From the NCBI GenBank assembly GCA_041661045.1, contig JBAZVE010000001.1, positions 180,001-212,000 of the forward strand: a DNA stretch of 32,000 nt, read 5' to 3'. Below the pieces are notes generated by a model. That model had not been told where the DNA came from and did no database searches. It saw only the letters and a list, made by a program, of their open reading frames with translations. The translations under genes were made by a program, and so were the position numbers. This document shows positions 2,691-28,600 of the stretch, one piece after another (the first letter of the stretch is position 1; every line of letters starts with the position of its first letter). Origin of the DNA: Candidatus Saccharimonadota bacterium. GTDB taxonomy: Bacteria; Patescibacteriota; Gracilibacteria; UBA1369; 2-02-FULL-48-14.

Positions 2691-2712
2691 TAAGGTTACT
2701 TTTCGCACAATT

Positions 2713-2819: not shown

Positions 2820-2836
2820 AATTTAACCCAAAATTT

Positions 2837-4081: not shown

Positions 4082-4090
4082 CAGCCCAAT

Positions 4091-4176: not shown

Positions 4177-5334
4177 ATGGCAGAAGATCCAAAAGCCGCA
4201 TCAGGCAGCCAAGAACCCGTTGAATCCAAGAATGTTTTCACGGAACTCTTTGGGAAAGAAGGGGCTACGACCTCCCCTCTTGCGCAAAATGTTTTGGCGC
4301 AGAAGGAGAAGGGACGATCCTTTTTTGGCTCCAGCCCAAAACAAGAGAGCGAGTTATCCCTCAAAACTCTTCGGGAACATCCCCGCAAACCCGGTGCCGC
4401 GGTGCTTAAGGCTTCGGTATTGATTTTGATCTTTACCGTGGCAGGCTTCCTCACTCAAAACTCCACTCGATTCTCCTTTTTTGGGGTGAATCCCGCTCTG
4501 CGCGTACAGCAAGCGGAGGAGCAAGTACTGGAACTTTCGGCACGAGTGCTGGTGCAAAACCACCTGGAAGCCGCTTTGCTTTTGGACCAATATCTTTCGA
4601 AAACCGATGAGTATTTTTATGCGCTTTCTCAACTGCAATCGCAGTACACTTCCGAGAACAAAAAGGCGGAATATCAGCTGCAAGTGGAAGAGATGAAACC
4701 GGAGTTGATCGATCTTTTGAGTCAAGTGCAAGAAGACTTTTTAAAAGAAATGAGCCCGGAACTTTTGGCTGCTTCTCAACAAGAAGTGGATACTCAACTC
4801 ACCGCGCTCCATGAACAAGCGGGCACCGTGGATGAAACTATTTTGGTTCAAGAAATTCAAGATTTAGAAACCGCAAAAAACCTCATGACACAGAATGCCT
4901 TTAAGCTCTCTGTGCTCGCTCTGGACCTGGAGAAAATGACCGGAGAGGATTTTGAGGCGGTCTACACTCAGTTCAGCGAAGTGAATGCCAGCATCACCGC
5001 GTTGATTGGAAAAATTAAAAATGCACGATTTGAGTGGTCCTTTTACCTGGATCAACTGGAACGACTCACCAAAACCGTGGACCCCCTCTTTGGAACCGAG
5101 TTTGCGGGCAGCTTGAGTTTGGATGAACTGCGCTTCACCAGTATGGGAACGGTGACCCTCACCGGAACCACGGTGACAGATGACAGTAAAAATTTCACGC
5201 TCGTCTCCGACTTGATCGATGCTTATGAAAAATCTGAATATTTTAAAGATGTTTTTGACCGCTCTTACAACAAGAACAGTGAGAATGAGGCTTACCTTGG
5301 AAGTTTCCGTATTTCCTTAACTCTTGAACAGTAA
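4177..5334 (+). CDS. bitopic membrane protein, PilN-like pilus assembly component
   Basis: 385 aa. A disordered cytoplasmic N-terminus is followed by a single TM (AAVLKASVLILIFTVAGFL) and a long heptad-like region. The C-terminus VTLTGTTVTDDSKNFTLVSDLIDAYEKSEYFKDVF resembles the PilN periplasmic domain. It is first in the pil operon. The INLLP-type PilM-binding motif was not seen. Confidence 0.5.
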   Translation: MAEDPKAASGSQEPVESKNVFTELFGKEGATTSPLAQNVLAQKEKGRSFFGSSPKQESELSLKTLREHPRKPGAAVLKASVLILIFTVAGFLTQNSTRFSFFGVNPALRVQQAEEQVLELSARVLVQNHLEAALLLDQYLSKTDEYFYALSQLQSQYTSENKKAEYQLQVEEMKPELIDLLSQVQEDFLKEMSPELLAASQQEVDTQLTALHEQAGTVDETILVQEIQDLETAKNLMTQNAFKLSVLALDLEKMTGEDFEAVYTQFSEVNASITALIGKIKNARFEWSFYLDQLERLTKTVDPLFGTEFAGSLSLDELRFTSMGTVTLTGTTVTDDSKNFTLVSDLIDAYEKSEYFKDVFDRSYNKNSENEAYLGSFRISLTLEQ

Positions 5335-5335
5335 T

Positions 5336-5908
5336 ATGAACGATCGACGACAAATTTTCTTGGGACTTTTCATTCTTCTGGTCAGTGCTTTGTATGGCGT
5401 TTACCAGTGGAATCAACGGGAAGCCTTACAAATTTCCGCGAACACCCTCAACACGCAGGCGGTGAGTTTGAATATGGAATACGCGGAACTGCAGGAACAA
5501 TATTCTTATATCAAAGTGGAAAGCGGTGCTGCGCGCGAAGTTGCCGCACAAGAACTTTCCGTGGTCTTCCCCACCAGTGAGGATTTGACCATGCTCACCC
5601 GACTTTTGGATGACTTTGCGGTGCGCAATAATTTTGAGGGAAACCCCTTCTTCATCAGCAGCCTTTCTTATGAAACGGCAAAGGCTTCGGAAGATGGGCA
5701 ATATCGATCTGTGCCGGTACGACTCAGCATCACGAGTTCGAAGAAAAATCTTGGTGAATTCTTGGAGTTTATTGAAAACTCCGGATCGCTTGAAGCCGGT
5801 GTTCGGCTCATGAGCATTGAAGATTTAAAAATTCAATATCCTTTGGAATTTGGCGGGACTTACGACATTCAAGTTGACCTCAACGCTTACTTTTCTCAAG
5901 AAATTTAA
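5336..5908 (+). CDS. PilO-like pilus assembly protein
   Basis: 190 aa from ATG 5336; the track start at 5324 is a TTG inside the upstream gene. An N-terminal TM (IFLGLFILLVSALYGVY) and a coiled coil are followed by FPTSEDLTMLTRLLDDFAVRNNF...VPVRLSITSSKKNLGEFLEFIENS, which is typical of PilO. Confidence 0.6.
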   Translation: MNDRRQIFLGLFILLVSALYGVYQWNQREALQISANTLNTQAVSLNMEYAELQEQYSYIKVESGAAREVAAQELSVVFPTSEDLTMLTRLLDDFAVRNNFEGNPFFISSLSYETAKASEDGQYRSVPVRLSITSSKKNLGEFLEFIENSGSLEAGVRLMSIEDLKIQYPLEFGGTYDIQVDLNAYFSQEI

Positions 5909-7158
5909 TGGACTCCAAACTTCAAGCATTGCAGGAAGCCATTGTGGGGGGGAACATCCCCCAGCTTGTGATGAACGCGGTTTCTTACGCGATTGATTTG
6001 AGGTCTTCGGACATTCATATTGAGCCACTCAAAAATACCGTTCAGATTCGCTATCGCGTGGATGGATCCCTACGACGCATTGTGGAATATCCTCCAAATA
6101 TTCATCCGGCCGTGGTTTCCAGAATTAAAATCATGTCTAATTTGAAGATTGATGAGCAAAGAATCCCTCAAGACGGACGAGCGCAAGTGACCACCCAAGA
6201 GGGCCGCGAACTGGATCTTCGTGTGTCCAGTCTCCCCACTATTAACGGGGAGAAGATGGTGATGCGTATCCAAGATCAATCCAAAGAAATTCCTACTTTT
6301 GAAAAGCTGGGAATTGCCGGGAATGCATTGAAATATTTAAAAGAAGCCTTGGCGCTTCCCAATGGAGTTATTTTGACTTCCGGACCAACGGGAAGTGGTA
6401 AAACCACCACGCTTTATGCATCCATGAACCTGTTGAATGCTCCGGATGTGAATATTTTGACCATTGAAGATCCGGTGGAAATTCAAATGGATGGACTCAA
6501 CCAATCGCAAGTGCATCCCGACATTGATTACACTTTTGCATTTGGACTCCGCACCGCTTTGCGCCAAGACCCCGACATCATCATGGTGGGGGAAATTCGT
6601 GATAAAGAAACCGTGGACACGGCCATTGAAGCGGCGTTGACCGGGCATCTTGTCTTGTCCACCATCCACACCAACTCCGCGGTGGAAACGCTGACACGCA
6701 TTGTGAATATGGGTGTGCCGAGCTTTTTGATGACAGCCACGATCAATGCCATTATTGCGCAACGACTGGTCCGAAAATTGTGCGATAAATGCAAGAAACC
6801 CATCACGGTGGATGAGAGTTCGTTGACCATGGTGAAAACCGCGCTTTCAAAGTTGCATCCCGATGAACCTCACGACCCTGCCAAGTTGCAAGCTTTGCAA
6901 TTCTTTGGGCCCGGTGGTGTGGATTGTGAACAGTGCAATGGAATTGGATACTATGGCCGAATTGGACTTTTTGAAGTTTTGAAGATGAACAATGAACTGC
7001 GAGATTTGATCTTGAAACAAGCCGGCTCGCCACAAATTCAGGAAGCAGGAATGCGCACCGGAATGGTGACACTGGAACAAGCCGGAATCCTTAAGGCTTT
7101 GGATGGCATTACCTCTTTGGAAGAAGTTTATTCCGTTGCAAGACCCGAATCCGCTTAA
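5908..7158 (+). CDS. pilB: type IV pilus assembly ATPase (GspE/PilB family), short form lacking the N-terminal N1 domain
   Basis: Walker A GPTGSGKTTT, Asp box ILTIEDPVE, Walker B DPDIIMVGEIRD, His box LSTIHTN, and the tetracysteine motif CDKC...CEQC characteristic of assembly ATPases. The start overlaps the upstream stop (TAATG). Confidence 0.93.
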   Translation: MDSKLQALQEAIVGGNIPQLVMNAVSYAIDLRSSDIHIEPLKNTVQIRYRVDGSLRRIVEYPPNIHPAVVSRIKIMSNLKIDEQRIPQDGRAQVTTQEGRELDLRVSSLPTINGEKMVMRIQDQSKEIPTFEKLGIAGNALKYLKEALALPNGVILTSGPTGSGKTTTLYASMNLLNAPDVNILTIEDPVEIQMDGLNQSQVHPDIDYTFAFGLRTALRQDPDIIMVGEIRDKETVDTAIEAALTGHLVLSTIHTNSAVETLTRIVNMGVPSFLMTATINAIIAQRLVRKLCDKCKKPITVDESSLTMVKTALSKLHPDEPHDPAKLQALQFFGPGGVDCEQCNGIGYYGRIGLFEVLKMNNELRDLILKQAGSPQIQEAGMRTGMVTLEQAGILKALDGITSLEEVYSVARPESA

Positions 7159-7161
7159 ACC

Positions 7162-8370
7162 ATGAATACTCCCGCTGCCAGCATTGGAACACGACTCGAC
7201 ATTGGACTTTCCAAGGAAGACCAAGCGCGGATTGATGAACTCCGATCTTCTTCAAAAATTGACCGTGTCCGTGGAAAACTGCTTAGTTTCTCGGCACTCA
7301 ATGAAAAAGTGGTGCTCCTCTTTACGCGAGTGAGTCTGCGAGAAAAAGTCATGCTTTTCCAATTGCTCTCCGTGATGATCAATGCCGGCGTTCCCATCAT
7401 TCGTTCTCTGTATGTGCTTTCCGAACAAGTCCCCAATTTGAAACTCAAAAAGGTGATTCTTGCCCTTGCTGTTGAAATGGAAGAAGGGACTCGATTCTCC
7501 GTGGCCATGGAAAAATTCCCCGATACTTTTTTGGAAGCGGAACGGGGAATGATCGCCAGTGGAGAAGCTTCTGGAAATCTCAATCAAATTTTAAAAGACA
7601 TCGCTAAACAAGCGGAGAAAAGTGCCGCCATTGTCTCCAAAGTGAAGGGCGCCATGGTTTACCCCGTGTCTGTCTTTGCGGTGATGTTCCTTTGTCTTTT
7701 CTTGATGCTCACCATGGTGGTGCCAAAACTCACGGCACTGTTCACAGAGGGGGGGCAGGAGCTTCCTCTTTCCACTCGAATCTTACTTGGGCTTTCGGAT
7801 TTTGCTCAAAATTACTGGCTGCAGGGCTTGGCTGTCCTGATTGTGCTTTTGGTGGCTTTGTTTTTCTTTAAGCGAAGTAGACAAGGAAAATATTCTTTGG
7901 ACCTCGCCCTGCTACATCTTCCGGTTTTTGGGAATTTGGTTCGACAGCTCATGATTGCTCGCTTTGCGCGCATGCTTGCGAGCCTCACCAACTCCGGTGT
8001 TCCTATTGTTAAAGCACTGGAAATCAATGCAAACGCGGTGGGGAACGAAGTGTATAAAAAGCGCATCCAGTATGCCGCTCAAGATGTTTCACAAGGAATT
8101 CCGCTGGGAGAAAACTTGCGGGATAGTGCCTTTCTCTTCCCCAGCATGGTTTCTTCCATGGTTTTGGTGGGAGAACAAACCGCCAATTTGAATGAAGTAT
8201 CCAGCAAAATCGCGGAGTATTATGAGGGAGAAGTGGACAATGCCGTTGCCTCTTTGTCTAAATTGATGGAACCGCTGATCCTTGTGATTATGGGGGCTTT
8301 GGTGGGATTCATTGTGGCGGCTATTATGCAGCCCATCATGGCGCTCAGTGATATTTCCTCCGCACTGTAA
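7162..8370 (+). CDS. pilC: type IV pilus platform protein (GspF/PilC family)
   Basis: 402 aa with two T2SS-F repeats (LFQLLSVMINAGVPIIRSL and FARMLASLTNSGVPIVKAL) and three hydrophobic TM segments. It lies next to pilB. Confidence 0.93.
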   Translation: MNTPAASIGTRLDIGLSKEDQARIDELRSSSKIDRVRGKLLSFSALNEKVVLLFTRVSLREKVMLFQLLSVMINAGVPIIRSLYVLSEQVPNLKLKKVILALAVEMEEGTRFSVAMEKFPDTFLEAERGMIASGEASGNLNQILKDIAKQAEKSAAIVSKVKGAMVYPVSVFAVMFLCLFLMLTMVVPKLTALFTEGGQELPLSTRILLGLSDFAQNYWLQGLAVLIVLLVALFFFKRSRQGKYSLDLALLHLPVFGNLVRQLMIARFARMLASLTNSGVPIVKALEINANAVGNEVYKKRIQYAAQDVSQGIPLGENLRDSAFLFPSMVSSMVLVGEQTANLNEVSSKIAEYYEGEVDNAVASLSKLMEPLILVIMGALVGFIVAAIMQPIMALSDISSAL

Positions 8371-8381
8371 GAGCGGTATTC

Positions 8382-8409
8382 TTGCCTTTTCTTTTGTGCA
8401 GTGTAAAAT
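8382..8409 (+). promoter_or_regulatory. candidate internal promoter for the pilin gene
   Basis: TTGCCT (8382-8387), 16-nt spacer, TAAAAT (8404-8409), 30 nt upstream of the pilin ATG. Confidence 0.45.
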
Positions 8410-8438
8410 TTGTGTATCCATATTAACCCATACACGCC

Positions 8439-9029
8439 ATGGTGAACTTTACTCCGCGCAAACGCGCGTTCACGCTCATTGAGCTTTTAATCGTTATCAC
8501 CATCATCGGTATTTTGGCCGTTGCTTTGGTGCCACGACTCACCGGTGCTTCCGGCCGTGCACGAGATGCCCAAAGACAAGGTGACCTCCAACAACTCGCC
8601 GTGATGCTGGAACAATACGCCACAGATAATGGAGGGTATCCCGGAACAAGTTCTTGTGCCGGAGAAACCAGTGCTACAGGTTTTGCAACCGTCATGACTC
8701 CTTACTGGACAACGGCTATTGCCGATCCCAGCGGATCTTACTGGGCCGGAACCGGTACTCCTTGTGCGGGTGGCACTACCCCAGAATCCAGCTACGCCTA
8801 CATTGCTTTGCAAACCACTGCCGGTGGACTGGCAGAGGGATACTTACTGATTGCAAACTTGGAAAATGAGAATGCAAGAGGTAAGGGAATTTATGCAACG
8901 AGTTTCAGTGTAAGCACTTCCATCACCGCTGCCGCTAACTTTTCTGCAACCGGGAATAACGAATGTACTTCCGCTGCAGTAACCGGGTGTACCGCAGGTA
9001 CAAATATGATCTATGTTGTGGGTCGATAG
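8439..9029 (+). CDS. type IV pilin (prepilin with N-terminal cleavage/methylation domain)
   Basis: MVNFTPRKRA/FTLIELLIVITIIGILAVALVP shows a class III signal with Glu at +5. There are two Cys pairs, C72...C108 and a C-terminal CTSAAVTGC loop. 196 aa. Confidence 0.92.
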   Translation: MVNFTPRKRAFTLIELLIVITIIGILAVALVPRLTGASGRARDAQRQGDLQQLAVMLEQYATDNGGYPGTSSCAGETSATGFATVMTPYWTTAIADPSGSYWAGTGTPCAGGTTPESSYAYIALQTTAGGLAEGYLLIANLENENARGKGIYATSFSVSTSITAAANFSATGNNECTSAAVTGCTAGTNMIYVVGR

Positions 9030-9049
9030 ATTTTTGGAAGTTTGAGTTT

Positions 9050-9078
9050 AAGCCCCCGCCGAATGGTGGGGGCTTTTT
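9050..9078 (+). terminator. rho-independent terminator after the pilin gene
   Basis: aagcccccgcc (9050-9060), loop gaat, ggtgggggctt (9065-9075): an 11-bp GC-rich stem with one G-U. It is followed by a T-run to 9078. Confidence 0.8.
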
Positions 9079-9159
9079 CGTTATGAAAACATAAATTGGG
9101 GAGTGGCAAGTTGAAAAGTAGACAACAGATTAAAATGGGCGGATTTTAAGGCGGAGTTT

Positions 9160-9168
9160 TGCTAGAAT
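9160..9168 (+). promoter_or_regulatory. extended -10 element (TGcTAGAAT) immediately upstream of the giant gene
   Basis: TG at 9160-9161 and TAGAAT at 9163-9168. The ATG at 9175 lies 7 nt after the -10, which would give a leaderless or near-leaderless mRNA. There is no good -35. Confidence 0.3.
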
Positions 9169-9174
9169 TTCGGC

Positions 9175-24100: not shown

Positions 24101-24318
24101 GTGATCCTTTGAATGGAAGGGATGACTTTGCGGATGACTCCGGCGATGGGCTAGAGCCTGGCATTTATGCGGTACAAGAGCCTTGTATTGCTTGTCCTTG
24201 CACTGCCACCATCGATTATGCCGCGGAACTTCGACCGGGGGATACTGTGTTTGCTATAATTCAAAATGCCGCCGGAGAAATCTTTGGAATCAGCAACTCA
24301 TTAACCCTAGAGGAATGA
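9175..24318 (+). CDS. giant (5047 aa) secreted mosaic cell-surface protein with SLH anchors
   Basis: A 15,144-nt ORF without a stop. Signal peptide: MRPRLHSNALKKIVIYGFLMSFLSSLLPMNRVAEA. Motif-level domains: TSP3-like DxDxDG Ca-binding repeats (~10090-10440, 13790-13905, 18190-18400, 23975-24125) and Ig-like Big domains (~12870-13110 plus four in tandem at ~14690-15900). Also FG-GAP/VCBS repeats (~16950-17340, 21320-21400), a PKD-like module (~22500-22620) and two SLH triads. Confidence 0.9.
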   Translation: MRPRLHSNALKKIVIYGFLMSFLSSLLPMNRVAEALSVVGSSDPVVVENPGGSLPELRNTGTVETRYGLVAILVEDSLWSANSGGSGFFSFLGTSGLKQKIQTYAEDVQATLPWTKTVIIQVEDEDTPVEIQRMLERFYFEGNPDDSDFTRLTGVVMVGSVPLPVVNKNGNRFVSLLPYTDFEEPSYLLDETSLDFLPNLEAQNLQAEVWHGLIVPPLDGQEGLDLLAAFFDKNHKFHTGDPEYTSFDEKIFVGDLVTEQSAINPTSYDSYDRFVGLWEELSYYRYTNDLVEDLYTDMQASVEAGDSLDNDGDGNYDEEAANGKDEDGDGLVDEDIGDGFFGIDNDEDGQVDEDHFEDNNNDKGWVYSGYTDSEADTLFSDKMVDEDPPGDSNGDGCPGHCGVDDNGDSEDHDGDGYPTGLEALYGWDWANEKKPWRSVKNWTNGQFGTSFETADAATEYLQEMFVDQFFNDGLRSPTCYASDGSYHSEWDDDEDGFCDEDGSVEMQIWTSPSGGSASGTCAYNDADCDGLIDEDPLGIQPAALFEDLPDIQARDIVGQLTSRYAELFDQPQGVWNRLVDQTGRYETRKSDGETVQNDYDTAISLISKKDEFTLQYLRSLNDNLEAQLNTIVEENLAEDIPIIAGLQITGWVQRAGEGAESICDPEGPVDPDGDKCLQFVNHSGFDNTLFDSEGALTDLDELEPSDYYISGQQLWDVHDANQCTSFAGTDEEGGQLAQFNTLYSRLFSVVAAEMTKADVKDYRNCVPEFASYLEDIPELCDEATVTKEIRVLDGAKTPEAEDTSRWEVGAEACFEFREVFTFNRYSQSVAEFNNWLTNKIRAFRKDGDDDEASYQEFLEKVEEERDRHDPRPDEATLRQPFANLDMIAADASLEYTMEDLLIELGYSAPSDDDIDTFLALQDEIQIENPSEGSGMSGVEELSLSFDKLFLKKDTEELTTLRSEAAEISSFAKHTQPTIATLNAQATNAGSPNLPIDATRRVSFIDAEGLAQELVYINVFDAQTLEAVQAQVAALAADMEEVAGGNRFVNTVENFYTGINADQLADALEWRGLSIDAKHRYVLSHYLGEEEPVVAKARSGYEMVSLIADGNAQELYFAFNGDQPETEEDLEFLYRSQAEIEAALAAAQADAAEEYEALAPVSGTTPVVLVEWINEIQEWLRDLEDSTSSFTIASLLDGEQVCGSASAAEVDTTDADDDGIVDSAEATGSLFLSTDESTVLQAGGGDYLTVSVAARNADGTINTEDSSTRVELRIVSGTESIEILGTASLVLTGGVASFTLESAAAGSFGLQALAESREDIRSSDVLNGSSEPKFVKLSTYITNLEHAGTDTVMEGDRIEIRDEEGTVRAVLNPITGDLDLRNAVVKLLEATEDLPTRISVESGEGLVYGVIFLIPEEGELDIQVLHPSAGIASAENGTALEENGVQMGLVTDLGQITLSAGYLLDFETPSNLNIYDPLHILNDDGESLFTVTLGTADDEASAEILKDEGEYSDYLGAVLGKILGWMGVGSAKADSVIPDSDGDLLDDLEEWVIGTVLSNGDSDGDGYLDGLEIFSGYDPLAEGKKLFTDIGIENPAYPDLALLYLRGVIKGYTDGSFRPDNPITREEFVKIDLGAICEDCDSYDAVYETELLAAYGLDPFPDTTINPELLACVAEAKGREIVSGYAGGEEEGYFLPKQFISRAEATKVLVETAGYSVDPVAEGEVWYSQYIATAEAHSLFPEGSPLTTEWLEESITRAEFVMMAVNMIEDKDCRTPMMDSNRNGIPDVEELDDPEEIPEVPEIPGVPDAFSGFGGYEHGPGLFVVSPNATVETITIGSGEGLTRVNLFTNEIPANGESEIFVRAEIRDVDDHIYAEDDSSVIEFILSSSEHGTVESSRVRVKNGVAETRFVGTDFAGTVTVEGRISDGSLPSQNAQIHLLPGEPVRVVLEGESRVLPAGAEASTNMNLSLYDSFGNLASNGFYSVSLTEEGGLELLDLNDEDSSMDGIQVTVSDGVLPFRVLSSLTVGQAGVQASLPEVPNSGDEWLIDHKESIILKVQPTQPYLLAGSAGSELVTIQAVDELGFPVSGFQGEVVLSLSDSGFGSFSSESISLVSGSGSSTLSPGTLAGTGSILAESPGLLGGSGPLVVKPADPYELRIRSEDGDSVLAAGEREKFFIEAYDVYGNFVSTDSTTSGSLRLTDSTAEFGTLSSGSFVLNQGRASVFVTSGEVSGKVSLVAASEALLAGTWGGTVNFTLSSEEIAEIDMQMLYASVLGGPFGDSTQENYLGAWMLFNGKTQAVTSLTSESKPKNRLATIDATGSIVLAEDGMVSQVVHGAGTDLPTRIQWREFPSDALLAEIFYKVGDLSGVSPELLTTDTDFELEESDGAWLLRENAAAVLKIREDGQVALMDPSYSLAVNAAADGLSLVALKNTDPVLLIDFDSAWNGELKALESGFVLEDWDRLEDGLYLKPTALSEHRLEPIPTGNSSLNAMGLALVDPSQELAGAMQPSLGYPSLESAEDNGNIGWEEENKHLLLFAAGNTVGQSNLFYPSEIGVVLGDPTIQLPTAGDIGDLGFTADIGVPVSASNEDIHTLLDLDYNGDGTMDVLAAYEDGRIEVLQNADSAVRLKNRGELLFIENGISSIGKGDFNNDGLEDLLIATEEACFEGEMCLYTYENIGGGFVAKNLSLSGVSGTPKQIQVGDLNNDDYDDIVLVDENLVMSVVWNSEGVLETVSPIKDFGLQADPETNLGGELVIHHEGLSSGSVGLSVLSDEFANSDAINTDFGGFLSAVSGDDDFESDSEGLSQEKTLPFEYADALSELFTVSKSLSDPNSGTVEIGDVLTTRVSIQNVSGATLSNIYFSDTDSGSFALDWNSLDSALVQEGEGLRPFIYGPFDLSNGQRLELEYDLSVQALPALSVLLGQDFYSDYRDDDYLDIAVSPEGGSAGDLLVFYSDGVVTEVREDGFLGIGERSFRHVNYQEKKYSSSTYEEEYTDTAPSPLADSDEDGIPDFIEGLDDEKGIPVPTDGSFDPIAEVMGGQDTNGDYYYSPDEMFVSTEDSDGDGLHDLVDDWLIAGTDALLLNPDLDLTADIPEQEIELEASFSFLDEEIEGITQKIEEVVSMFTCNGGCIAFPGSVAFLAPGGYHDPTTGATIMTDYGTPIFGLLPWLPVVCSGQMCYASQVLRLYLAPTTTLGLGMGVCLGQYGAGQCFAFSIPILQALGLCDMMNGFITEALAKATGFVAEGAQVAFNVGNIVSVTAGTSGLESAVFTTYRPPVAVNTNIQVPGFPSIFTEWWKAQKEEFFKVLDLPDITFIYPDPKSLVAKPNPLTLKETSDLASAGPLEKIKIVEQGIMGLEKWLNWAHGLPLINIDVEPVEVRYPALTQEEIDITLASMYLWKERTELEWLDFKNQFALRNDLTAAQKEVVDGINDTMEQAITAVEANLAIVEGYSEIPEKILALRDLEATIAQIIVCYLDAILGSTAGYLAENAQRIEAWGNWALDMRDLLDSWQVLVDLSADLMDSCDKCTNQRYSAMQLLFSLFIFIPDFPVVELPKLPDIVIDVSNIQGGLTIVWPDLKFIPERLNIPELPVIVFPDVDLKLDADFDFDLDIPTLPVPNLDIELPPLPPLTLPNLPDLPPPPAIPALDPSLEAALSISSNILKIVCIIRQGFIPVPEFALKAKIEEITERPGGIILPIDLAITVEWPKFNYDFVKEIQVNTMMNFSWEITTFYDFIAGIGEKSNGMLTDFVQESINKPLEELQKDIQDVFDLLGEQEWDLEVDAEFDGEASPDGADASTDGGVGVQGDLENDGEDAIQEFEDIEEDIESGFESYQEAMDTALAYKDHPLVKQNLAMLKSTLETMQKEFKAWDAVMPDEVLLSVESQELALDDPLLHRFDEIRRSPNLDQDFLASIEGTPLSSVVSLRDSLLASTEDLMQGTVALKGMGDESFYRYLAAEQVGNPVALAGIAAEGEALSTRWIEELNRVELAAEMDDASSAASFDSESLELGAQAESTNQGLYIYNSETGVSERLVDYTQESDEATSLLFMDIDEDGDQDLVYSMGGDIYLKENHTETASVRAVSEDPLERRVQDLDPGQGSVHNLKRGKNDYSEASFAFNGAETAVGYEVLLYDSLDAEESNPDENIKRLLLLNEGENESLPFVDEEENSVGTLQKSRLWVDAVSGKVSLQNAYQRTFIDTNGEIEVGEAVIFQTIENSVIEFDSANSSSSISVPAGSLLHFSAQAELRLRVEQGSVYWIDATEKVDTQDLEQGMEIFAEELIALESSGADATLLSSDGLSLDLDQEELFVMDSLVSTDNPAVTVQLENGAYYAITRALYEGGGIGTKSENILLNPQVCADDSEPYILVDNGGDEDGGDGLVDSDGDGALELAIFSVRELSAESSFDSDSAIVDAYWDLDDQVDSDGDGIKNNDDQSLGLTTEIGPYEDTRERIVTLYVTDSAGNTAVQEIAVEIYVPAIVLTEATVDFVRGITDPLSPDFPFHLIRDRNGVLKEIGEGAGTDAYGEIYEELIPSNRLAVYDSTGEVVAEFNPVTKQVLVYDSAYASAVLPAGDEWPSRLVVYQKSFGAVVGSFLFVNSASTQIREVAVPLENLDLSIYDYPTVYTVSDSEHYEFTQNSLVARNSLGALEFMLSPSGSISIFDERYHLVKRAASSLDEYLVIEVYDGDQLELEIWPGSPDALHLTTTEELDLPGSELLNPGTSGSGSTRLVFEDIDEDDPLYKNLVELVERGILEGYTENDAQYFKPDQAINRAEFTKIILGILCIVPRDEAEALPSVFNDILDPTVWYFGVTKESFLRELITGYLGEVDSAGVAPFKPNKTISRAEAVKIVLEALDKENIIELPENLVGEPWYDPYMNIAQDLTPYLVSDSTAGSESFIVTKEEAKDPLHELTRYEFVEMSVRVLEAYNCFDLDSDGDGLFNIDEETVYGTDPYNPDTDAGGVDDGSEVDRGSDPLNGRDDFADDSGDGLEPGIYAVQEPCIACPCTATIDYAAELRPGDTVFAIIQNAAGEIFGISNSLTLEE
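13930..14478 (+). other. internal triple S-layer-homology (SLH) module of the giant protein
   Basis: FTDIGIENPAYPDLALLYLRGVIKGYTDGSFRPDNPITREEFVKI, then FPDTTINPELLACVAEAKGREIVSGYAGGEEEGYFLPKQFISRAEATKVLV, then VWYSQYIATAEAHSLFPEG...ITRAEFVMMAV. These fit the SLH pattern F.D...........G...GY.DG.F.P...[IV][ST]R[AE]E. Confidence 0.6.
23374..23967 (+). other. C-terminal triple SLH module of the giant protein
   Basis: FEDIDEDDPLYKNLVELVERGILEGYTENDAQYFKPDQAINRAEFTKIIL, then FNDILDPTVWYFGVTKESFLRELITGYLGEVDSAGVAPFKPNKTISRAEAVKIVL, then a degenerate third copy ending LTRYEFVEMSVRVLE. Confidence 0.6.
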
Positions 24319-24908
24319 TGCCTTTGCCTCAAAAATTGGAGTCCCGACTTTTCTTGCTTTGCCTCAGCTTGATGCTGGTCTTCAATGGTTTGTTTTATGC
24401 TCTTGCGGAGGAGACAACGGGAGAAACCGTTGCTACCGAGATCGAAGGTGTGGACTATGCCTGCGGGCAGGCTGTGACTGAACAGGCCTCTGTCCTTATT
24501 GACTCTTACCAAACCTTTTTGGATGACTATTTTAAAGTGGATACACCTTCCAGCAGCCAAGTGGATCATGCCATGCGTTACTACCGATACATGGAAAGTT
24601 CCATTGAAGCCATTTATGAAAACAACTTGGATCTTTATGCCAATACGACTCTCCAAGACAGCACCCAGGCGAGCAGTGATTGTGCAGGCAGACGAGATTT
24701 CTATTTGGATGTCGCCCGCGCTCTGCTTCAAAAACAAGTCATCGCTTCTGCGAACAGCAAGCGCACTTTTGAAGTGATCGATGGTCTTAAAATCATGAAT
24801 GCCGATTTGGAAGAATTTTCCGATGAGTTCAATGCTGTCTTCCCCGCTTACTTCAATAAATTCAACAATGCTTTACCCTGTTACGCTCGCCAATGCATAG
24901 TAAAATGA
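24315..24908 (+). CDS. secreted hypothetical protein P1 (197 aa), first of the four-gene cassette
   Basis: The ATG at 24315 overlaps the giant-gene TGA (ATGA). The track ORF from 24183 is an in-frame extension inside the giant gene. Signal-like MMPLPQKLESRLFLLCLSLMLVFNGLFYALA. Ends ...LPCYARQCIVK. Confidence 0.75.
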   Translation: MMPLPQKLESRLFLLCLSLMLVFNGLFYALAEETTGETVATEIEGVDYACGQAVTEQASVLIDSYQTFLDDYFKVDTPSSSQVDHAMRYYRYMESSIEAIYENNLDLYANTTLQDSTQASSDCAGRRDFYLDVARALLQKQVIASANSKRTFEVIDGLKIMNADLEEFSDEFNAVFPAYFNKFNNALPCYARQCIVK

Positions 24909-25543
24909 AATGGTTTAAATGGTTTGTGCTGGCCTTTGCGGCCGGCTTCCTTCTCCCCCATACTTATGGTTCGCTTCTGCTTGCCAGCGTTTTGGATACC
25001 AAGAGCACTTACGACGGCATGACCATGACCGATGCCATTCGAACTTACCATGTGGCCAACACTGTGATTGTGGATGAGTTCTTTTTAAGGCCCCTGTTGG
25101 ACCCGGATTTTGCAACGCTTGGTTATGTTAAATATCCGGACCCGGAAACGGGCTGCGAAAAAAATGTGTCCACTTACTGTTTGGCTTTGGCCTTGGATGA
25201 GAACCTGGTTCAATTTGAAATTTACTTGAGAAAAAGCCAGGATGCCTTGGATTTTGGAACGGCGGAAGAAGGGAGCGAACAGCCCCTCTCCTTGAACGAT
25301 GCCTTGCAAGAAGCCACCTCACAAAGAACCGTGGTGGATCAACAAATCTTGCTGGCGGAAGAGAGCATCGATTTAACTTTGGCCGTGTACAACCAGGTGC
25401 AGTTGGTTTACCCCGTGCACAGCGAAATGCTGAAGTTGATTGGAAACCTGGATGATTACCGCGGGAATTTGGGGGAAATTCGGGACATCGTGGAAAAGTA
25501 TCCTTCTAAATTTAATGGAGCGAGCACCGCTCAATGCCAATGA
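24905..25543 (+). CDS. secreted hypothetical protein P2 (212 aa)
   Basis: The ATG at 24905 overlaps the P1 stop (ATGA); an alternative ATG lies at 24893. N-terminus MKWFKWFVLAFAAGFLLPHTYG is hydrophobic. Ends ...YPSKFNGASTAQCQ. Confidence 0.75.
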   Translation: MKWFKWFVLAFAAGFLLPHTYGSLLLASVLDTKSTYDGMTMTDAIRTYHVANTVIVDEFFLRPLLDPDFATLGYVKYPDPETGCEKNVSTYCLALALDENLVQFEIYLRKSQDALDFGTAEEGSEQPLSLNDALQEATSQRTVVDQQILLAEESIDLTLAVYNQVQLVYPVHSEMLKLIGNLDDYRGNLGEIRDIVEKYPSKFNGASTAQCQ

Positions 25544-27453
25544 AAAAATTCTTTTTATTCGGAATTGGATTGGTTTTGAGCCTTGCTGCCGGCATGTCGG
25601 TAAGCCGGGCTTTGGTTCCCAATGAAGACGATTTGCTTCAGCAAATTTTTGAGGAGGCGGGCATTGAGATGAGTGAAAAAACGGATGCGAAAGAACTCGA
25701 AAATTTGGCGGCCAACAGTGAAGCGCCTTTTTCTGGGCTCTATCTTTTTATGTTACAAAATATTGTGCAAGGGCCACGGGATGCGGCGGCCGTTGAGATC
25801 GCGGAGCGCTTTAAATACACGGAAGATGAAATCAAAAACATTGTTTTGGAAGGCAGCGTGGAGCCCATCATCGACAAACAGCGAGGAGAAGCTTCGGCGG
25901 TTCAATCCCAAGAAGTGGTGGATCAAATGACGGCAGCCGTCACCCAAGGGGATGCGGATTTTGAGACCTTTCTTTCCAGCAATAGTTTTAGCCCCGTCAC
26001 CGAATCTTATCTCCGTTGGCATTATCAAACCTATGAACGCCCCCCCCTTCCCTCCGAAATCGGTACCGTGCTCAGCAATGATTTTGTGCTCAAAGAATTC
26101 ACCGCCATTGGCGATGCTTATGATGATGAGCTTCAATTTCAGGAAGACAACCGGCGCTTGGCTTACGAAACCTTGGCCAGCGAAATGTTCTTCAATAATG
26201 ATTTGGGCGATTCCGCCAATATCGACATTTTGTACGATTTGGATTTGATCCATTATCTTTTGTTTGGCGACTTCATCACCTACCCCGATCGCAGCGGAGG
26301 TTCTGTGGATTTGGCTTCGGAGGAAGCGCTTCAACTTTTCCCAGAGCCGAGCGCAGAGGGCTCTGAGGAAGAAGCCGTGGTGGTTTTGGCGGAAGAGCCG
26401 GCAGAAGCTCCGTTCAATCCCTATGCGTGTTATGCCGATGAAGGCCTCACGGAGGCACTCGATTCCTTCGCTACCAATCCCCCGGATCTTGGTTCAGCGC
26501 TCCCGGAGCCTGAAAATTCTTTTAATTATGAGATTCCCGGACGAGATGGCACGGGCGGCGAGGATGGCAGTGGCGGCAGTGCCGGCACACTTGATGGCGC
26601 AACCGATGGCGAGGCGGGTGGGTCCGGTGGCAGTGGCGGAACGGAGAATCCTTATGCTGTGGATATTGGCGCGGCCTTTGAAGCTTTGGATGCTTTCCTC
26701 CTCTCTTTGGAGATGAAGCCGGGAGATTGGATGCGCACGCTGCCCTGCAGTGGAGTTTTTTGTATCGAAATTAAATTCATCCCCGAAACCAACGACCCCG
26801 AAGTGGATACGGAGCGCATGCAGGCGGATGATTTTGAGCCGACTGAGAACTGCGTCGCGTGCCATACCGCTTATATAAAAGAACGGCTCACCGAAACCAT
26901 GAGCAAGAGCTTGGTGCCCAGCAAAATCACTAAGAATTGGTTTGAAGATGCCACTTGCAAGGATGCCGGCTATCACATCAATTTGGACCTCAATGTGTAT
27001 GCCATTAAAAAGCCCATAGACTTGGATACCGGAGACACACTGGACGACAAAGCCGGTGAAGAAATCGATGAATTTAAAACCCAACTTTTTGGAATTGCGG
27101 GCATCCCTCTTCCGGATGGCTCAGGTGGAATTTTGGGCAAGAGCAAGAGTGAATCGGAATGTGAGAGCCTTTTGAATATTGGAAAAATGGTGGGGACGGA
27201 ACGCAAGATCGACGAACTTTTGGGAAGTTGCCAGAAGGCTGCCGACAGTAATGTGGCCGAGCTGCAAGAAGTTTTTGATGAATTCGTTTATAATATTCAT
27301 TCTCAAACTACCAGTGATTTGTTCTCTCAAGTTTCCAGCGAGCTCTACAGCATGCTTCTCTATTTCCAAAACTTTCAGGGAAGCTTGGAAGCCACCTACC
27401 TCACTGAACAAGCCCCTCTTTCCGTTCTCATTAATAAAGAATACTGCCAATGA
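25540..27453 (+). CDS. secreted hypothetical protein P3 (637 aa) with Gly/Asp-rich linker and Cys-rich module
   Basis: The ATG at 25540 overlaps the P2 stop (ATGA). Signal MKKFFLFGIGLVLSLAAGMSVSRA. Low-complexity GRDGTGGEDGSGGSAGTLDGATDGEAGGSGGSGG (~26540-26650). Then LPCSGVFCIEIKF...ENCVACH...ATCKD. Ends ...NKEYCQ. Confidence 0.8.
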   Translation: MKKFFLFGIGLVLSLAAGMSVSRALVPNEDDLLQQIFEEAGIEMSEKTDAKELENLAANSEAPFSGLYLFMLQNIVQGPRDAAAVEIAERFKYTEDEIKNIVLEGSVEPIIDKQRGEASAVQSQEVVDQMTAAVTQGDADFETFLSSNSFSPVTESYLRWHYQTYERPPLPSEIGTVLSNDFVLKEFTAIGDAYDDELQFQEDNRRLAYETLASEMFFNNDLGDSANIDILYDLDLIHYLLFGDFITYPDRSGGSVDLASEEALQLFPEPSAEGSEEEAVVVLAEEPAEAPFNPYACYADEGLTEALDSFATNPPDLGSALPEPENSFNYEIPGRDGTGGEDGSGGSAGTLDGATDGEAGGSGGSGGTENPYAVDIGAAFEALDAFLLSLEMKPGDWMRTLPCSGVFCIEIKFIPETNDPEVDTERMQADDFEPTENCVACHTAYIKERLTETMSKSLVPSKITKNWFEDATCKDAGYHINLDLNVYAIKKPIDLDTGDTLDDKAGEEIDEFKTQLFGIAGIPLPDGSGGILGKSKSESECESLLNIGKMVGTERKIDELLGSCQKAADSNVAELQEVFDEFVYNIHSQTTSDLFSQVSSELYSMLLYFQNFQGSLEATYLTEQAPLSVLINKEYCQ

Positions 27454-28547
27454 GATTTCCTACTAAAATTCTTTTTTCATTTTTCCTCCTCGCTGGGCTT
27501 GGGCTCTCCGCTGCCGCTGTGCCCGCTCAAGCTCTGGAGATTCCAGAAGGTCTGGAAAGTTTGGCGGAGCCCCTTTGTCCGGGGGCTTGGGCGGACTACT
27601 ATGGCTTTGTGCTGACCGTTCGCAATGAAGATACGCGTCAACAAACCTTCAAAGATTTGTTCACCGTCGGGTACTGTCAACTGTATGATATTTTGGCCTT
27701 GGAAGAGGAGTTGGACAATACCCGTGAGCGCTTCCGTGCCGCGGCTTTTGCCTGCCAAGATACCCAAGCGTACAAAATCGACTACCACCGCATTCTTATG
27801 GAGCAACATTTCATTAGAAACATCCAAAATGAGCCCTCGGATGTGATCAATGTAAAAGATGCGGAACTTTATGAGGAGCTTAAAGAAGAACGACTGAGTG
27901 CCTTGCAAAGCGAGATGCTCGATGCTTTTGTTGTGGAGGAGAAATGGTTGACTGAAGGAGATTTCGAAGATCTTTTTGCGAGCTGGACGGAAAAGTACGA
28001 TGACCGCATTGGAGATTATAGCCAATGTGAAGAAGGTTCCTGGTCTCAGATCCGTGAAACTGTTGAAGAATTTCAAGAAACGATTGATGAACTTCAAGTC
28101 GATGTTAAAAAGAGAGAAAATCTTAATTTTAAAGATAATTTTTCCCTCAGCACCAGCGATTTGGAAAAAGAATTTGAAAACTTAAGATCCACCGGGGACA
28201 GCGCCCTGCACGGTTGGGAGTACTACAAGAACCTCGTGAGTCTTGAAAAAATTGAAGTGGATCCTGCGGCAACGGTGAGTGACCTCACAAGTTCCGGAGA
28301 TGTCTTTACCTTTGGCTCTGCTCTCGACCTTTTGCAAGAAGATATTATAAGGCAAGAGATTGAGGCGCAGCAGGCGGAGCGAAAAGCTCGTTATGCTTTG
28401 CTTTATGGAGAAGGGGGTGCGGCGGCCGCCACGGATATGCAGGCCATTTTGGATGCACTCAACCAAAGCATCGCCGCCTCCAATACCAAAGACCTCCCCG
28501 CTATTTTGGATCGAGTCGCTAAGATCTACGATATGCAGTGCAACTAA
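27450..28547 (+). CDS. secreted hypothetical protein P4 (365 aa)
   Basis: The ATG at 27450 overlaps the P3 stop (ATGA). Signal MRFPTKILFSFFLLAGLGLSAAAVPAQA. Acidic and helical-looking. Ends ...KIYDMQCN. Confidence 0.8.
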   Translation: MRFPTKILFSFFLLAGLGLSAAAVPAQALEIPEGLESLAEPLCPGAWADYYGFVLTVRNEDTRQQTFKDLFTVGYCQLYDILALEEELDNTRERFRAAAFACQDTQAYKIDYHRILMEQHFIRNIQNEPSDVINVKDAELYEELKEERLSALQSEMLDAFVVEEKWLTEGDFEDLFASWTEKYDDRIGDYSQCEEGSWSQIRETVEEFQETIDELQVDVKKRENLNFKDNFSLSTSDLEKEFENLRSTGDSALHGWEYYKNLVSLEKIEVDPAATVSDLTSSGDVFTFGSALDLLQEDIIRQEIEAQQAERKARYALLYGEGGAAAATDMQAILDALNQSIAASNTKDLPAILDRVAKIYDMQCN

Positions 28548-28576
28548 CGAGATAAGAGTGAGAATACGGTGTGTTT

Positions 28577-28600
28577 GCCGGGATTCAGTGCCGGTTTTTT
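28577..28600 (+). terminator. weak terminator candidate after the cassette
   Basis: A short stem (CCGG at 28578-28581 pairing with CCGG at 28591-28594) is followed by TTTTTT (28595-28600). The stem is only 4-5 bp. Confidence 0.3.

What the first reader, a model, noticed from the sequence alone, without database searches (positions are those of the whole stretch)
4177..28547. Pilus-type machine, a 5047-aa SLH-anchored giant protein and four coupled secreted proteins form one co-oriented 24-kb block
Ten consecutive plus-strand genes run with minimal spacing. The set comprises PilN-like, PilO-like, PilB, PilC, pilin, the giant protein and P1-P4. The pil genes are joined by junctions from a 1-nt overlap to a 3-nt gap. 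The pilin has its own promoter and a strong terminator, and the giant gene starts 97 nt after that terminator. It is then chained to four unknown secreted proteins by ATGA overlaps. The window contains no PilD prepilin peptidase, no PilM, no PilT retraction ATPase and no minor pilins. This therefore looks like a minimal filament or pseudopilus machine sitting next to its possible cargo or partner. Hypothesis (inference): the block is a surface-attachment or host-interaction module in which the pilus-like apparatus works with, or helps display, the giant wall-anchored adhesin and its accessory proteins. I know of no described system with this composition.
Basis: partly seen in the sequence, partly recalled or inferred. 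Interest (0 to 1): 0.75.

Follow-up and report, generated by a model that had tools for sequence, protein, structure and literature searches.

The report
Pilus genes beside conserved giant wall protein
In an uncultured, probably host-dependent group of tiny bacteria (Peregrinibacteria), a compact set of pilus-building genes nearly always sits just upstream of a 4,000-6,000-residue wall-anchored protein and four small secreted partner proteins, which marks an undescribed cell-surface apparatus that probably serves attachment to other cells.

Summary

The window comes from a Peregrinibacteria/Peribacteria (CPR) genome. The giant is not a one-off. Its conserved core finds 461 clusters at 50% identity, almost all 3,500-6,000 aa, collinear with this protein and named Peregrinibacteria where named.

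There are three nested levels of linkage:
- Giant + P1-P4 is found in every locus that shows the downstream region, except one deep-branch member.
- One to three canonical type IV pilin genes lie directly upstream in 40 of 44 de-replicated lineages, followed in most of the short pilin-giant spacers scanned by a terminator conserved in position only.
- PilN-like, PilO-like, a short PilB and PilC lie upstream in 21 of 28 lineages.

Two cautions apply. rplJ-rplL upstream and uvrA downstream are almost as conserved, so part of the linkage is inherited gene order. Three deep-branch giants have no pilus genes next to them.

The core, P3 and P4 have no sequence match to a known family or solved structure, and P1 and P2 match no Pfam or NCBIfam family. 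The core model has no fold match; the P proteins were not modelled.

Best reading: two adjacent operons for a surface or host-contact apparatus. Physical coupling between pilus and giant is plausible but unproven. No paper in the library searched describes it. The closest analogue is the giant genes next to T2SS-like loci in Omnitrophota.

The parts
4177..5334 (+). PilN-like bitopic membrane protein (385 aa): a cytoplasmic N-terminus of about 75 aa, one TM segment, a long coiled-coil and a C-terminal PilN-type domain.
   Evidence: ORF. Pfam PilN is sub-threshold here (E 0.019, residues 315-382) but matches 11 of 16 orthologues, best E 5.5e-5. Conserved in this position in relatives.
5336..5908 (+). 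PilO/GspM-like bitopic membrane protein (190 aa).
   Evidence: Weak T2SSM_b match, E 0.005. Pfam PilO matches 6 of 16 orthologues, best E 4.3e-4. Gap of 1 nt to the gene before it and 1-nt overlap with PilB.
5908..7158 (+). PilB/GspE-family extension ATPase, short form (416 aa) without the N-terminal N1/MshEN-type domain. Walker A (GPTGSGKT) and a CxxC...CxxC zinc motif are present.
   Evidence: Pfam T2SSE, E 2.5e-125. TIGR02538 PilB aligned over model positions 180-561 only. The motifs were read from the translation. Orthologues are 395-463 aa.
7162..8370 (+). PilC/GspF platform protein (402 aa).
   Evidence: Pfam T2SSF, E 2.6e-51, two domains. TIGR02120 GspF, E 9.5e-89.
8382..8409 (+). Sigma-70-like promoter match in front of the pilin gene (TTGCCT-16-TAAAAT).
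   Evidence: Consensus match only; the number of such matches in the region equals the shuffle expectation.
8439..9029 (+). Type IV pilin (196 aa) with a class III signal peptide (…KRA|FTLIELL), Glu5 and Ala at position -1.
   Evidence: Pfam N_methyl, E 1.1e-8. TIGR02532 and the GspG N-terminus. There are 69 orthologous pilin N-termini: 58 have G|F and 11 have A|F.
9050..9080 (+). Intrinsic terminator after the pilin gene (11-bp stem, 8 GC pairs, T run).
   Evidence: dG -21.6 kcal/mol. An equivalent hairpin plus T run, conserved in position but not in sequence, is present in most of the short pilin-giant spacers scanned.
9175..24318 (+). Giant surface protein (5047 aa). In order: N-terminal signal/anchor, conserved N-terminal alpha/beta domain, Ca-binding TSP3-like repeats, SLH triad 1, Ig-like region, FG-GAP repeats, conserved core, SLH triad 2, C-terminal domain.
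   Evidence: Single ORF. Pfam matches. Only one strongly hydrophobic segment, at the N-terminus. Full-length collinear homologues in more than 100 cluster representatives.
9340..10074 (+). Conserved N-terminal domain of the giant (aa 56-300), with motifs GDVPLPVVNKxGNRF, PYTDF, EIWHG and FDKNH.
   Evidence: Conserved in about 120 homologues at 27-75% identity. AlphaFold2 model with pLDDT 82. Only weak fold matches, to caspase-8 and gingipain K, E 0.014-0.07. No PDB sequence match. No conserved catalytic Cys.
13930..14484 (+). SLH triad 1 (aa about 1586-1770), with TRAE-type motifs ITREEF, ISRAEA and ITRAEF.
   Evidence: Pfam SLH, E 6.8e-16, best stretch 1586-1627. The motifs were read.
17119..17316 (+). 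FG-GAP/VCBS repeats (aa about 2649-2714).
   Evidence: Pfam FG-GAP_3, E 4.9e-13.
18496..20349 (+). Family-defining conserved core (aa 3108-3725), with 8 invariant Cys, a long helical segment and a Pro-rich LPxLP stretch.
   Evidence: Alignments A1 and A4. The profile finds 461 clusters. No Pfam or NCBIfam match. No PDB sequence match. The AlphaFold2 model is of low confidence (pLDDT 61) and has no fold match.
23374..23964 (+). SLH triad 2 (aa about 4734-4930), with motifs INRAEF, ISRAEA and LTRYEF.
   Evidence: Pfam SLH, E 5.8e-8. The motifs were read.
24315..24908 (+). P1: secreted protein of 197 aa. ATGA overlap with the giant's stop. Conserved C-terminal LPCYAxxC.
   Evidence: Orthologues directly after the giant in 16 loci. 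No Pfam or NCBIfam match.
24905..25543 (+). P2: secreted protein of 212 aa. ATGA overlap. Three conserved Cys, including the penultimate residue.
   Evidence: No family match.
25540..27453 (+). P3: secreted protein of 637 aa. ATGA overlap. Nine Cys. Conserved motifs WxRxLPCxxxFCI and NCxxCH. Cys is the penultimate residue.
   Evidence: 50 homologues, all about 530-650 aa and none with a Pfam domain. No meaningful PDB match.
27450..28547 (+). P4: secreted, mostly helical protein of 365 aa. ATGA overlap. Five Cys, with Cys as the penultimate residue.
   Evidence: No meaningful PDB match.
28544..28912 (-). Two small genes convergent with P4: HTH_17 DNA-binding protein (28742-28912) and a zinc-ribbon-like protein (28544-28720). 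They may belong to the system, for example as a regulator. This is uncertain.
   Evidence: Pfam HTH_17, E 1.8e-13; zinc-ribbon matches are weak. An HTH_17 gene occupies the same position in L022, L086 and L087.

Best explanation
The block is a hallmark cell-surface gene cluster of Peregrinibacteria, made of two adjacent transcription units.

**Unit 1 (4177-9080)** builds a type IV filament. It encodes two bitopic PilN/PilO-like alignment proteins, a PilB-type extension ATPase without the N-terminal domain, a PilC platform and a canonical pilin. The pilin must be processed by a prepilin peptidase encoded elsewhere. The unit ends in a strong terminator.

**Unit 2 (9175-28547)** encodes a Sec-exported giant protein and four translationally coupled, Sec-exported, cysteine-bearing proteins (P1-P4). 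The giant is tied to the cell wall by two SLH triads.

**Inferred mechanism.**
- P1-P4 are made in fixed proportion with the giant and assemble with it into a wall-anchored surface complex, possibly linked by disulfide bonds.
- This complex and the pilus act together in contact with other cells. The pilus would give reach and force, and the giant complex would give the stable anchored contact.

**Shown:** gene content, domain identities, junctions, the terminator, and the three nested levels of conserved linkage.
**Inferred:** complex formation, a host-contact role, and any physical coupling between pilus and giant.
For: **Gene identities:**

**Coupling and terminator:**. A terminator is conserved in position but not in sequence in most of the short pilin-giant spacers scanned.

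**The giant family is large and collinear.**
- 461 clusters at E <= 1e-3 and 306 at E <= 1e-30.
- The N-terminal domain, core and C-terminus are shared by more than 100 representatives.
- All named members are Peregrinibacteria, Peribacteria or 'Gracilibacteria'.

**Giant + P1-P4.**
- Present in 11 loci: the window and 10 species-representative genome loci, plus L022, L086, L087 and L088.
- They share signal-peptide-like N-termini, ATGA or near-zero spacing, conserved Cys counts and a Cys within the last four residues.

**Pilus linkage, de-replicated at 70% identity.**
- Pilin upstream in 40 of 44 lineages.
- PilB+PilC in 21 of 28 lineages.
- PilO-like in 16 of 21 lineages.

**Rearranged loci.** Where the pilBC and rplJL neighbourhood is lost (L015, L016, L022, L029, L030, L033, L038, L039), the pilin still sits next to the giant.

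**Literature.** Large exported proteins and type IV pili have been proposed to mediate attachment in Peribacteria and in related CPR predators (PMC4736985; PMC8080830).
Against: - Synteny extends to genes with no conceivable functional link: rplJ-rplL upstream in 13 of 21 lineages, and HTH_17, uvrA and prsW downstream. Adjacency may therefore be partly inherited gene order.
- A strong terminator separates the pilin from the giant.
- Unrelated genes are inserted in that spacer in L016 (AbiE toxin-antitoxin), L020 (DUF1543) and L087 (AAA_14/DUF4143).
- Deep-branch giants L023, L088 and L089 have no adjacent pilin, yet L088 keeps the P genes.
- No domain in the giant or in P1-P4 is known to bind pilins.
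- There are no expression or protein data.
- Signal peptides were judged by eye, not by a predictor.
Confidence: 0.55

Rival explanations
1. Neighbours by descent only. The pil operon is an ordinary type IV pilus (adhesion, twitching or DNA uptake). The giant + P1-P4 operon is an independent wall-anchored or S-layer-associated adhesin system. They lie side by side because this chromosomal region (rplJL ... uvrA) has kept its gene order throughout Peregrinibacteria.
For: - rplJ-rplL is retained upstream in 13 of 21 lineages, nearly as often as pilBC at 16 of 21.
- HTH_17, uvrA and prsW are retained downstream at only 31-46% giant identity.
- The terminator between pilin and giant is conserved.
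- Foreign genes are tolerated in that spacer.
- Deep-branch giants have no pilus genes next to them.
Against: - When the region is rearranged, the breakpoints fall upstream of the pilin, not between pilin and giant, in 8 of 9 loci where pilBC is absent from the upstream sequence available (2.8-10 kb).
- Co-orientation is kept in all loci.
- The short PilB without an N-terminal domain differs from the 608-aa PilB of the canonical cluster in a complete Peribacteria genome, which hints at a specialised second system.
Confidence: 0.3
2. T2SS-like pseudopilus. The pil genes build a short filament that pushes the Sec-exported giant and/or P1-P4 through the peptidoglycan and S-layer, or helps to mount them there.
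For: - No retraction ATPase in the cluster.
- PilB without an N-terminal domain, similar in length to ComGA.
- The pilin's N-terminus scores best against GspG.
- All five downstream products look Sec-exported.
- Giant genes in Omnitrophota are likewise preceded by a conserved T2SS-like locus (bioRxiv 10.1101/2023.11.21.568195).
Against: - No secretin, GspC/L or minor pseudopilins.
- The GspG match covers only the generic N-terminal helix.
- Deep-branch giants with P genes exist without adjacent pil genes.
- To my knowledge, pseudopilus-driven secretion is not established for cells without an outer membrane.
Confidence: 0.1
3. Envelope scaffold. The giant + P1-P4 complex is a structural part of the wall/S-layer that forms the passage or anchor for the pilus, functionally replacing a secretin or collar.
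For: - The giant is collinear from end to end across the family and appeared only once in each locus examined, which fits machinery better than a fast-changing adhesin.
- Two SLH triads would fix it in the wall at two points.
- The pilin gene is its most faithful neighbour.
Against: - No ring-forming or secretin-like domain was detected.
- The core model is of low confidence and has no fold match.
- Copy number per genome was not measured.
- Deep-branch giants have no adjacent pilin.
Confidence: 0.05

Closest known systems
Type IV pilus / type IV filament assembly systems of monoderm bacteria (for example the Com pseudopilus ComGA-ComGB-ComGC and clostridial T4P)
   Same: PilB/GspE-family ATPase, PilC/GspF platform, pilin with a class III signal peptide and Glu5, PilN/PilO-like bitopic partners, and no secretin. 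The ATPase lacks the N-terminal domain, as ComGA does.
   Different: The cluster has no PilD/ComC, PilM, PilT or minor pilins. It is fixed next to a giant SLH protein operon, which is not a feature of those systems.
Giant genes of Omnitrophota preceded by a conserved T2SS/T4P-like locus (bioRxiv 10.1101/2023.11.21.568195)
   Same: A very large surface protein gene lies immediately downstream of a conserved locus with GspE, GspF and class III signal-peptide genes, in ultra-small, probably host-dependent bacteria. Attachment to prey or host was proposed.
   Different: - Different phylum.
- Those giants exceed 30,000 aa, have many transmembrane regions and SecA-DEAD domains, and their locus includes the secretin GspD and more than 10 subunits.
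- This giant is 5,047 aa, has one N-terminal hydrophobic segment and SLH triads, and is followed by four coupled secreted proteins. No Pfam family beyond the generic SLH/FG-GAP surface domains was detected here, and a direct comparison with an Omnitrophota giant was not run.
PilY1/PilC-type pilus-associated adhesins
   Same: A large Ca-binding, beta-propeller-containing surface protein encoded next to pilin genes.
   Different: No match to the PilY1/Neisseria PilC domain. There are no adjacent minor pilins, the protein is 4-5 times larger, it is wall-anchored by SLH, and it has a Sec-type N-terminus.
SLH-anchored S-layer and cell-wall proteins of monoderm and CPR bacteria
   Same: SLH triads with TRAE-type motifs. 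NCBI names family members 'S-layer homology domain-containing protein'.
   Different: Two triads are placed about 3,000 residues apart inside one polypeptide. The core and N-terminal domains are family-specific, and there are four obligatory partner genes.
Large exported Cys-rich proteins of Ca. Peribacter riflensis (PMC4736985)
   Same: Same lineage, same theme of large exported proteins, and attachment was proposed.
   Different: Those proteins average 1,655 aa with 7% Cys. In that genome rplJ-rplL is not followed by pilus genes or a giant. The cluster described here is not reported in that paper.

Membership tests
Type IV filament (T4P/T2SS/Com) assembly system | PilB/GspE-family hexameric extension ATPase | tested here: met
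   Pfam T2SSE, E 2.5e-125; TIGR02538, E 3.4e-147, below that model's equivalog cut-off because the N-terminal domain is missing.
Type IV filament (T4P/T2SS/Com) assembly system | PilC/GspF polytopic platform protein | tested here: met
   Pfam T2SSF, E 2.6e-51, two domains.
Type IV filament (T4P/T2SS/Com) assembly system | Pilin with a class III signal peptide, a hydrophobic N-terminal helix and Glu5 | tested here: met
   N_methyl, E 1.1e-8; sequence KRA|FTLIELLIV.
Type IV filament (T4P/T2SS/Com) assembly system | Prepilin peptidase (PilD/GspO/ComC) | tested here: not met
   Absent from the 32-kb window. The rest of the genome could not be read. A complete Peribacteria genome has pilD at a separate site.
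Type IV filament (T4P/T2SS/Com) assembly system | PilM/N/O (or GspL/M) alignment subcomplex | tested here: inconclusive
   PilN and PilO matches are sub-threshold but recur in 11 of 16 and 6 of 16 orthologues. No PilM or GspL was found.
Type IVa pilus (retractile) | PilT retraction ATPase and minor pilins with PilY1 | tested here: not met
   None in the window. Relatives carry 1-3 near-identical pilin copies rather than a minor-pilin set.
Type II secretion system | Secretin GspD, GspC/L and minor pseudopilins GspH-K | tested here: not met
   No such matches.
SLH-anchored cell-wall protein | SLH domains, usually in threes, with TRAE-type motifs | tested here: met
   Pfam SLH, E 6.8e-16 and 5.8e-8. 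Two triads were read in the sequence.
SLH-anchored cell-wall protein | Pyruvylated secondary cell-wall polymer (CsaB) as the ligand | not testable with these tools
   Needs the whole genome or biochemistry.
Omnitrophota-type giant proteins | More than 30,000 aa, many transmembrane regions, a divergent SecA-DEAD domain | tested here: not met
   5,047 aa; one strongly hydrophobic segment, at the N-terminus; no SecA or DEAD match.
PilY1/PilC tip adhesin | PilY1/Neisseria PilC C-terminal propeller domain, encoded with minor pilins | tested here: not met
   No such Pfam match. No minor pilins.
Clan CD cysteine peptidase (caspase/gingipain), considered for the giant's N-terminal domain | Catalytic His-Cys dyad on a caspase-like fold | tested here: not met
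   Fold matches are only weak (E 0.014-0.07, TM 0.22-0.35). A conserved His is present (EIWHG), but there is no conserved Cys in alignment A2.

The most novel reading that the evidence does not exclude
The giant protein and P1-P4 form a wall-anchored complex that is physically part of a dedicated type IV filament machine, acting as its envelope passage, anchor or contact head. That would make this a new class of pilus-coupled surface organelle, which Peregrinibacteria use to seize and hold host cells.
Probability: 0.2. Interest if true: 0.8.

Novelty: new variant of a known kind. Interest (0 to 1): 0.6.

Why it matters
Peregrinibacteria are uncultured CPR bacteria with genomes of about 1 Mb, thought to live attached to other cells. 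How they attach is unknown. Here about 2% of such a genome is spent on one conserved cluster: a pilus set, a protein of 4,000-6,000 aa, and four partner proteins, none of which belongs to a known family. This gives a concrete, lineage-wide candidate for the contact apparatus. It also gives defined targets for cryo-ET, proteomics and antibody labelling in enrichment cultures. Finally, it echoes the pairing of giant genes with T2SS-like loci in Omnitrophota, which suggests that very small host-dependent bacteria may repeatedly combine type IV filaments with giant surface proteins.

Tried and rejected
**Function of the giant's parts.**
- Pfam and NCBIfam found nothing for the core or P1-P4.
- phmmer and profile searches against PDB sequences found nothing meaningful for the two halves of the giant, the N-terminal domain, the core, P3 or P4.
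- AlphaFold2 modelled the N-terminal domain well (pLDDT 82), but Foldseek against PDB gave only weak matches to caspase, gingipain and dehydroquinase. I rejected a peptidase assignment because no conserved Cys is present.
- The core model was poor (pLDDT 61, pTM 0.34) and had no fold match.

**P1-P4 as paralogues.** hhalign probabilities were 6% or lower, so this was rejected.

**Membrane-embedded core.** Rejected: no strong hydrophobic segment beyond the N-terminus.

**Searches that needed adjusting or gave nothing.**
- The first metagenome scan, with the 26-sequence alignment, failed for lack of a conserved stretch. It was repeated with 7 sequences.
- Rfam and tRNA scans of the window found nothing.

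**Literature.** Searches for a description of this cluster found only general remarks on large surface proteins and pili.

**Not possible.** I could not read the rest of this genome to look for PilD, PilT, PilM or a second pilBC set.

Full report
**1. Observation**

The window carries ten consecutive plus-strand ORFs at the stated coordinates. I read the junctions directly:
- PilN-like to PilO-like: 1-nt gap (stop 5334, ATG 5336).
- PilO-like to PilB: 1-nt overlap at 5908.
- PilB to PilC: 3-nt gap.
- PilC to pilin: 68-nt spacer with a sigma-70-like match at 8382-8409.
- Pilin to giant: 145-nt spacer holding a strong hairpin (9050-9075; 11 bp, 8 GC) followed by a T run.
- Giant to P1, P1 to P2, P2 to P3 and P3 to P4: four ATGA overlaps.

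A second terminator, at 4091-4123, closes the upstream radical-SAM gene. The pil genes are therefore bracketed by terminators. The promoter call is a consensus match only, and such matches are no more frequent in this region than in shuffled sequence.

**2. Identities**

- PilB is a T2SSE ATPase (E 2.5e-125). It aligns to the PilB equivalog only from model position 180 onward, so it is a 416-aa form without the N-terminal domain. Walker A and a tetracysteine motif are present.
- PilC is a two-domain T2SSF protein.
- The pilin has a canonical class III signal peptide with Glu5. Position -1 is Ala here and in its closest relatives (11 pilins), and Gly in 58 others.
- The first two genes match PilN and PilO only below threshold. 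The same weak matches recur in 11 of 16 and 6 of 16 orthologues, so the labels are reasonable.
- The giant (5,047 aa) has one N-terminal hydrophobic segment. It carries two SLH triads, at about aa 1586-1770 and 4734-4930, FG-GAP repeats and Ig-like segments.
- P1-P4 match nothing in Pfam or NCBIfam. They are not detectably related to one another.
- The other genes in the window are rplJ, rplL, a NikA-like fragment, a radical-SAM protein, a small HTH_17 gene, an MFS transporter and uvrA. There is no PilD, PilM, PilT or minor pilin.

**3. Origin and family size**

- The window matches a Logan metagenome contig.
- A word-indexed search with the giant's core found only two relatives. An exhaustive profile search found 461 clusters at 50% identity, 306 of them at E <= 1e-30. 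Nearly all are 3,500-6,000 aa, with the core at a comparable position.
- BLAST of eight consecutive segments shows that more than 100 representatives are collinear from the N-terminal domain to the C-terminus.
- In shorter members (about 4,000-4,300 aa), the segment that holds SLH triad 1 matches only near the C-terminus. This suggests they carry only the C-terminal triad, but SLH positions in those proteins were not scanned.
- Every named member is from Peregrinibacteria, Peribacteria or NCBI 'Gracilibacteria', usually named 'S-layer homology domain-containing protein'.

**4. Neighbourhood conservation**

*Downstream.*
- Ten species-representative genome loci, like the window, have four co-directional genes directly after the giant.
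- These genes share signal-peptide-like N-termini and overlaps or near-zero spacing. Their Cys counts are conserved: P1 4-5, P2 3, P3 9 and P4 5 in the closer clade. Each has a Cys within the last four residues.
- HMMs of the four families also find them after the giants of L022, L086, L087 and L088. In L088 the fourth gene is present but not recognised. L089 has none.

*Upstream.*
- A metagenome scan with the N-terminal domain gave 62 loci. Together with the other loci, 81 carry the domain.
- After de-replication at 70% identity there are 56 lineages:

| Upstream sequence available | Lineages | Feature found |
|---|---|---|
| at least 0.9 kb | 44 | pilin in 40 |
| at least 5 kb | 28 | PilB+PilC in 21 |
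| at least 9 kb | 21 | PilB+PilC in 16; PilO-like in 16; PilN-like in 12; rplL in 13 |

- Three contigs reached through the N-terminal protein search show the same order: rplJ, rplL, PilN-like, PilO-like, PilB, PilC, pilin, giant.
- L087 shows the entire block plus HTH_17, uvrA and prsW at only 31-46% giant identity.
- One to three near-identical pilin genes occur between PilC and the giant.
- A GC-rich hairpin with a T run follows the last pilin gene in most of the short pilin-giant spacers scanned. Its sequence differs but its position is the same.

**5. What the pattern does and does not show**

There are three nested levels:
- Giant + P1-P4 is the tightest and oldest link. It survives in L088, where there is no pilin.
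- Pilin + giant is next. In eight loci without nearby pilBC or rplJL (L015, L016, L022, L029, L030, L033, L038, L039) the pilin is still directly upstream.
- The pilN/O/B/C genes are linked in about three quarters of lineages.

Against a mechanistic reading:
- Unrelated housekeeping neighbours are conserved almost as well, so part of the signal is inherited gene order.
- The pilin-giant spacer holds a terminator and tolerates insertions: AbiE toxin-antitoxin in L016, DUF1543 in L020 and an AAA_14/DUF4143 gene in L087.
- Three deep-branch giants (L023, L088, L089) have no pilus genes within 10 kb.

**6. Is the pilus set 'minimal'?**

This cannot be decided from 32 kb. The complete genome of Ca. 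Peribacter riflensis has the following at separate sites:
- pilD;
- pilT;
- a canonical 608-aa PilB with PilC and large pilin-like proteins;
- an orphan 373-aa gspE.

In that genome rplJ-rplL is not followed by pilus genes (PMC4736985, supplementary file 2). It is therefore likely, but untested, that PilD is supplied from elsewhere here, and that the short-PilB set is a second, specialised system.

**7. Structure and function of the novel parts**

- The N-terminal domain (aa 56-300) is the best-conserved part, with motifs GDVPLPVVNKxGNRF, PYTDF, EIWHG and FDKNH.
- It gives a confident alpha/beta model (pLDDT 82). Fold matches are only weak, to caspase-8 and gingipain K (E 0.014-0.07). No conserved Cys is present, so I do not call it a peptidase.
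- The core has 8 invariant Cys, a long helical segment and a Pro-rich LPxLP stretch. Its model is poor (pLDDT 61) and has no fold or sequence match in PDB.
- P3 and P4 profiles find nothing meaningful in PDB. All 50 P3 homologues are unannotated proteins of similar length.

**8. Mechanism**

The best-supported reading is two adjacent operons for one surface function. The first is a type IV filament assembly set. The second encodes a wall-anchored giant complex whose four partners are made in fixed proportion by translational coupling. The odd Cys counts and the C-terminal Cys of P2-P4 suggest intermolecular disulfides; this is inference. A role in attachment to other cells fits what has been proposed for Peribacteria and for related CPR predators, but it is not shown here.

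My estimates are:
- giant and P1-P4 act together: about 0.85;
- the pilus genes are functionally tied to them: about 0.5-0.55;
- pure inherited adjacency: about 0.3;
- T2SS-like export: about 0.1;
- envelope-scaffold role: about 0.05.

**9. Comparison and novelty**

- The pilus part is an ordinary member of the type IV filament superfamily, in a compact form without a secretin.
- The closest published analogue of the whole arrangement is the conserved T2SS-like locus upstream of Omnitrophota giant genes. Those proteins differ in size, topology and domains, and their locus contains a secretin.
- I found no description of the Peregrinibacteria cluster in the library searched.
- I rate it a new variant of a known kind: a type IV filament locus paired with a giant surface protein. 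It contains several uncharacterised, lineage-wide protein families.

Noticed in passing
window 28544-28912 (-): Two small genes convergent with P4: an HTH_17 DNA-binding protein (56 aa, E 1.8e-13) and a zinc-ribbon-like protein (58 aa). An HTH_17 gene sits in the same place after the P genes in L022, L086 and L087, so it may be a regulator of the cluster.
   Followed up: partly
window 1409-4123: About 2.9 kb lies between rplL and the PilN-like gene. It holds a 172-aa ORF, a NikA-like mobilisation-protein fragment (E 8.5e-8) and a radical-SAM gene with its own terminator. In L019 and L021 rplL is followed directly by the PilN-like gene, so this looks like an insertion in this lineage.
   Followed up: partly
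window 25540-27453 (P3); protein P0162: A protein 100% identical to P3 is recorded on a 1,316,577-bp JGI contig. A near-complete genome of the same organism therefore exists and could be searched for PilD, PilT and PilM.
   Followed up: no
window 24315-28547 and loci L004-L018: Mature P2, P3 and P4 have odd numbers of Cys (3, 9 and 5) in the closer clade. Each ends with a Cys one to four residues from the C-terminus. P1 ends in a conserved LPCYAxxC. This suggests intermolecular disulfides.
   Followed up: partly
window 8439-8500 and pilins of L024-L029, L039, L046: The pilin's cleavage-site residue at position -1 is Ala in the window's clade (11 pilins), whereas 58 other giant-linked pilins have the usual Gly.
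   Followed up: yes
L016:2070-3333; L087:6729-7895; L020:3355-3915: Unrelated genes are inserted between the pilin and the giant in some relatives: an AbiEi/AbiEii toxin-antitoxin pair, an AAA_14/DUF4143 ATPase and a DUF1543 gene.
   Followed up: partly
L015:1-1989 (-): A large secreted protein made of Cys-rich 'DNDCDG' repeats (MopE-like) lies upstream of the pilin in this relative. It recalls the Cys-rich exported proteins reported for Peribacteria.
   Followed up: no
window 9130-24000 (-): Many long antisense ORFs lie inside the giant gene, for example 9130-11115 (661 aa) and 11203-12510 (435 aa). GC skew is strongly positive (+0.1 to +0.26) over the gene. These are probably composition artefacts of an Asp/Glu/Gly-rich coding strand, not genes.
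   Followed up: no
L088:1-5705: A second very large gene (more than 2,197 aa, with a weak dockerin match) lies 4 kb upstream of the deep-branch giant in L088.
   Followed up: no
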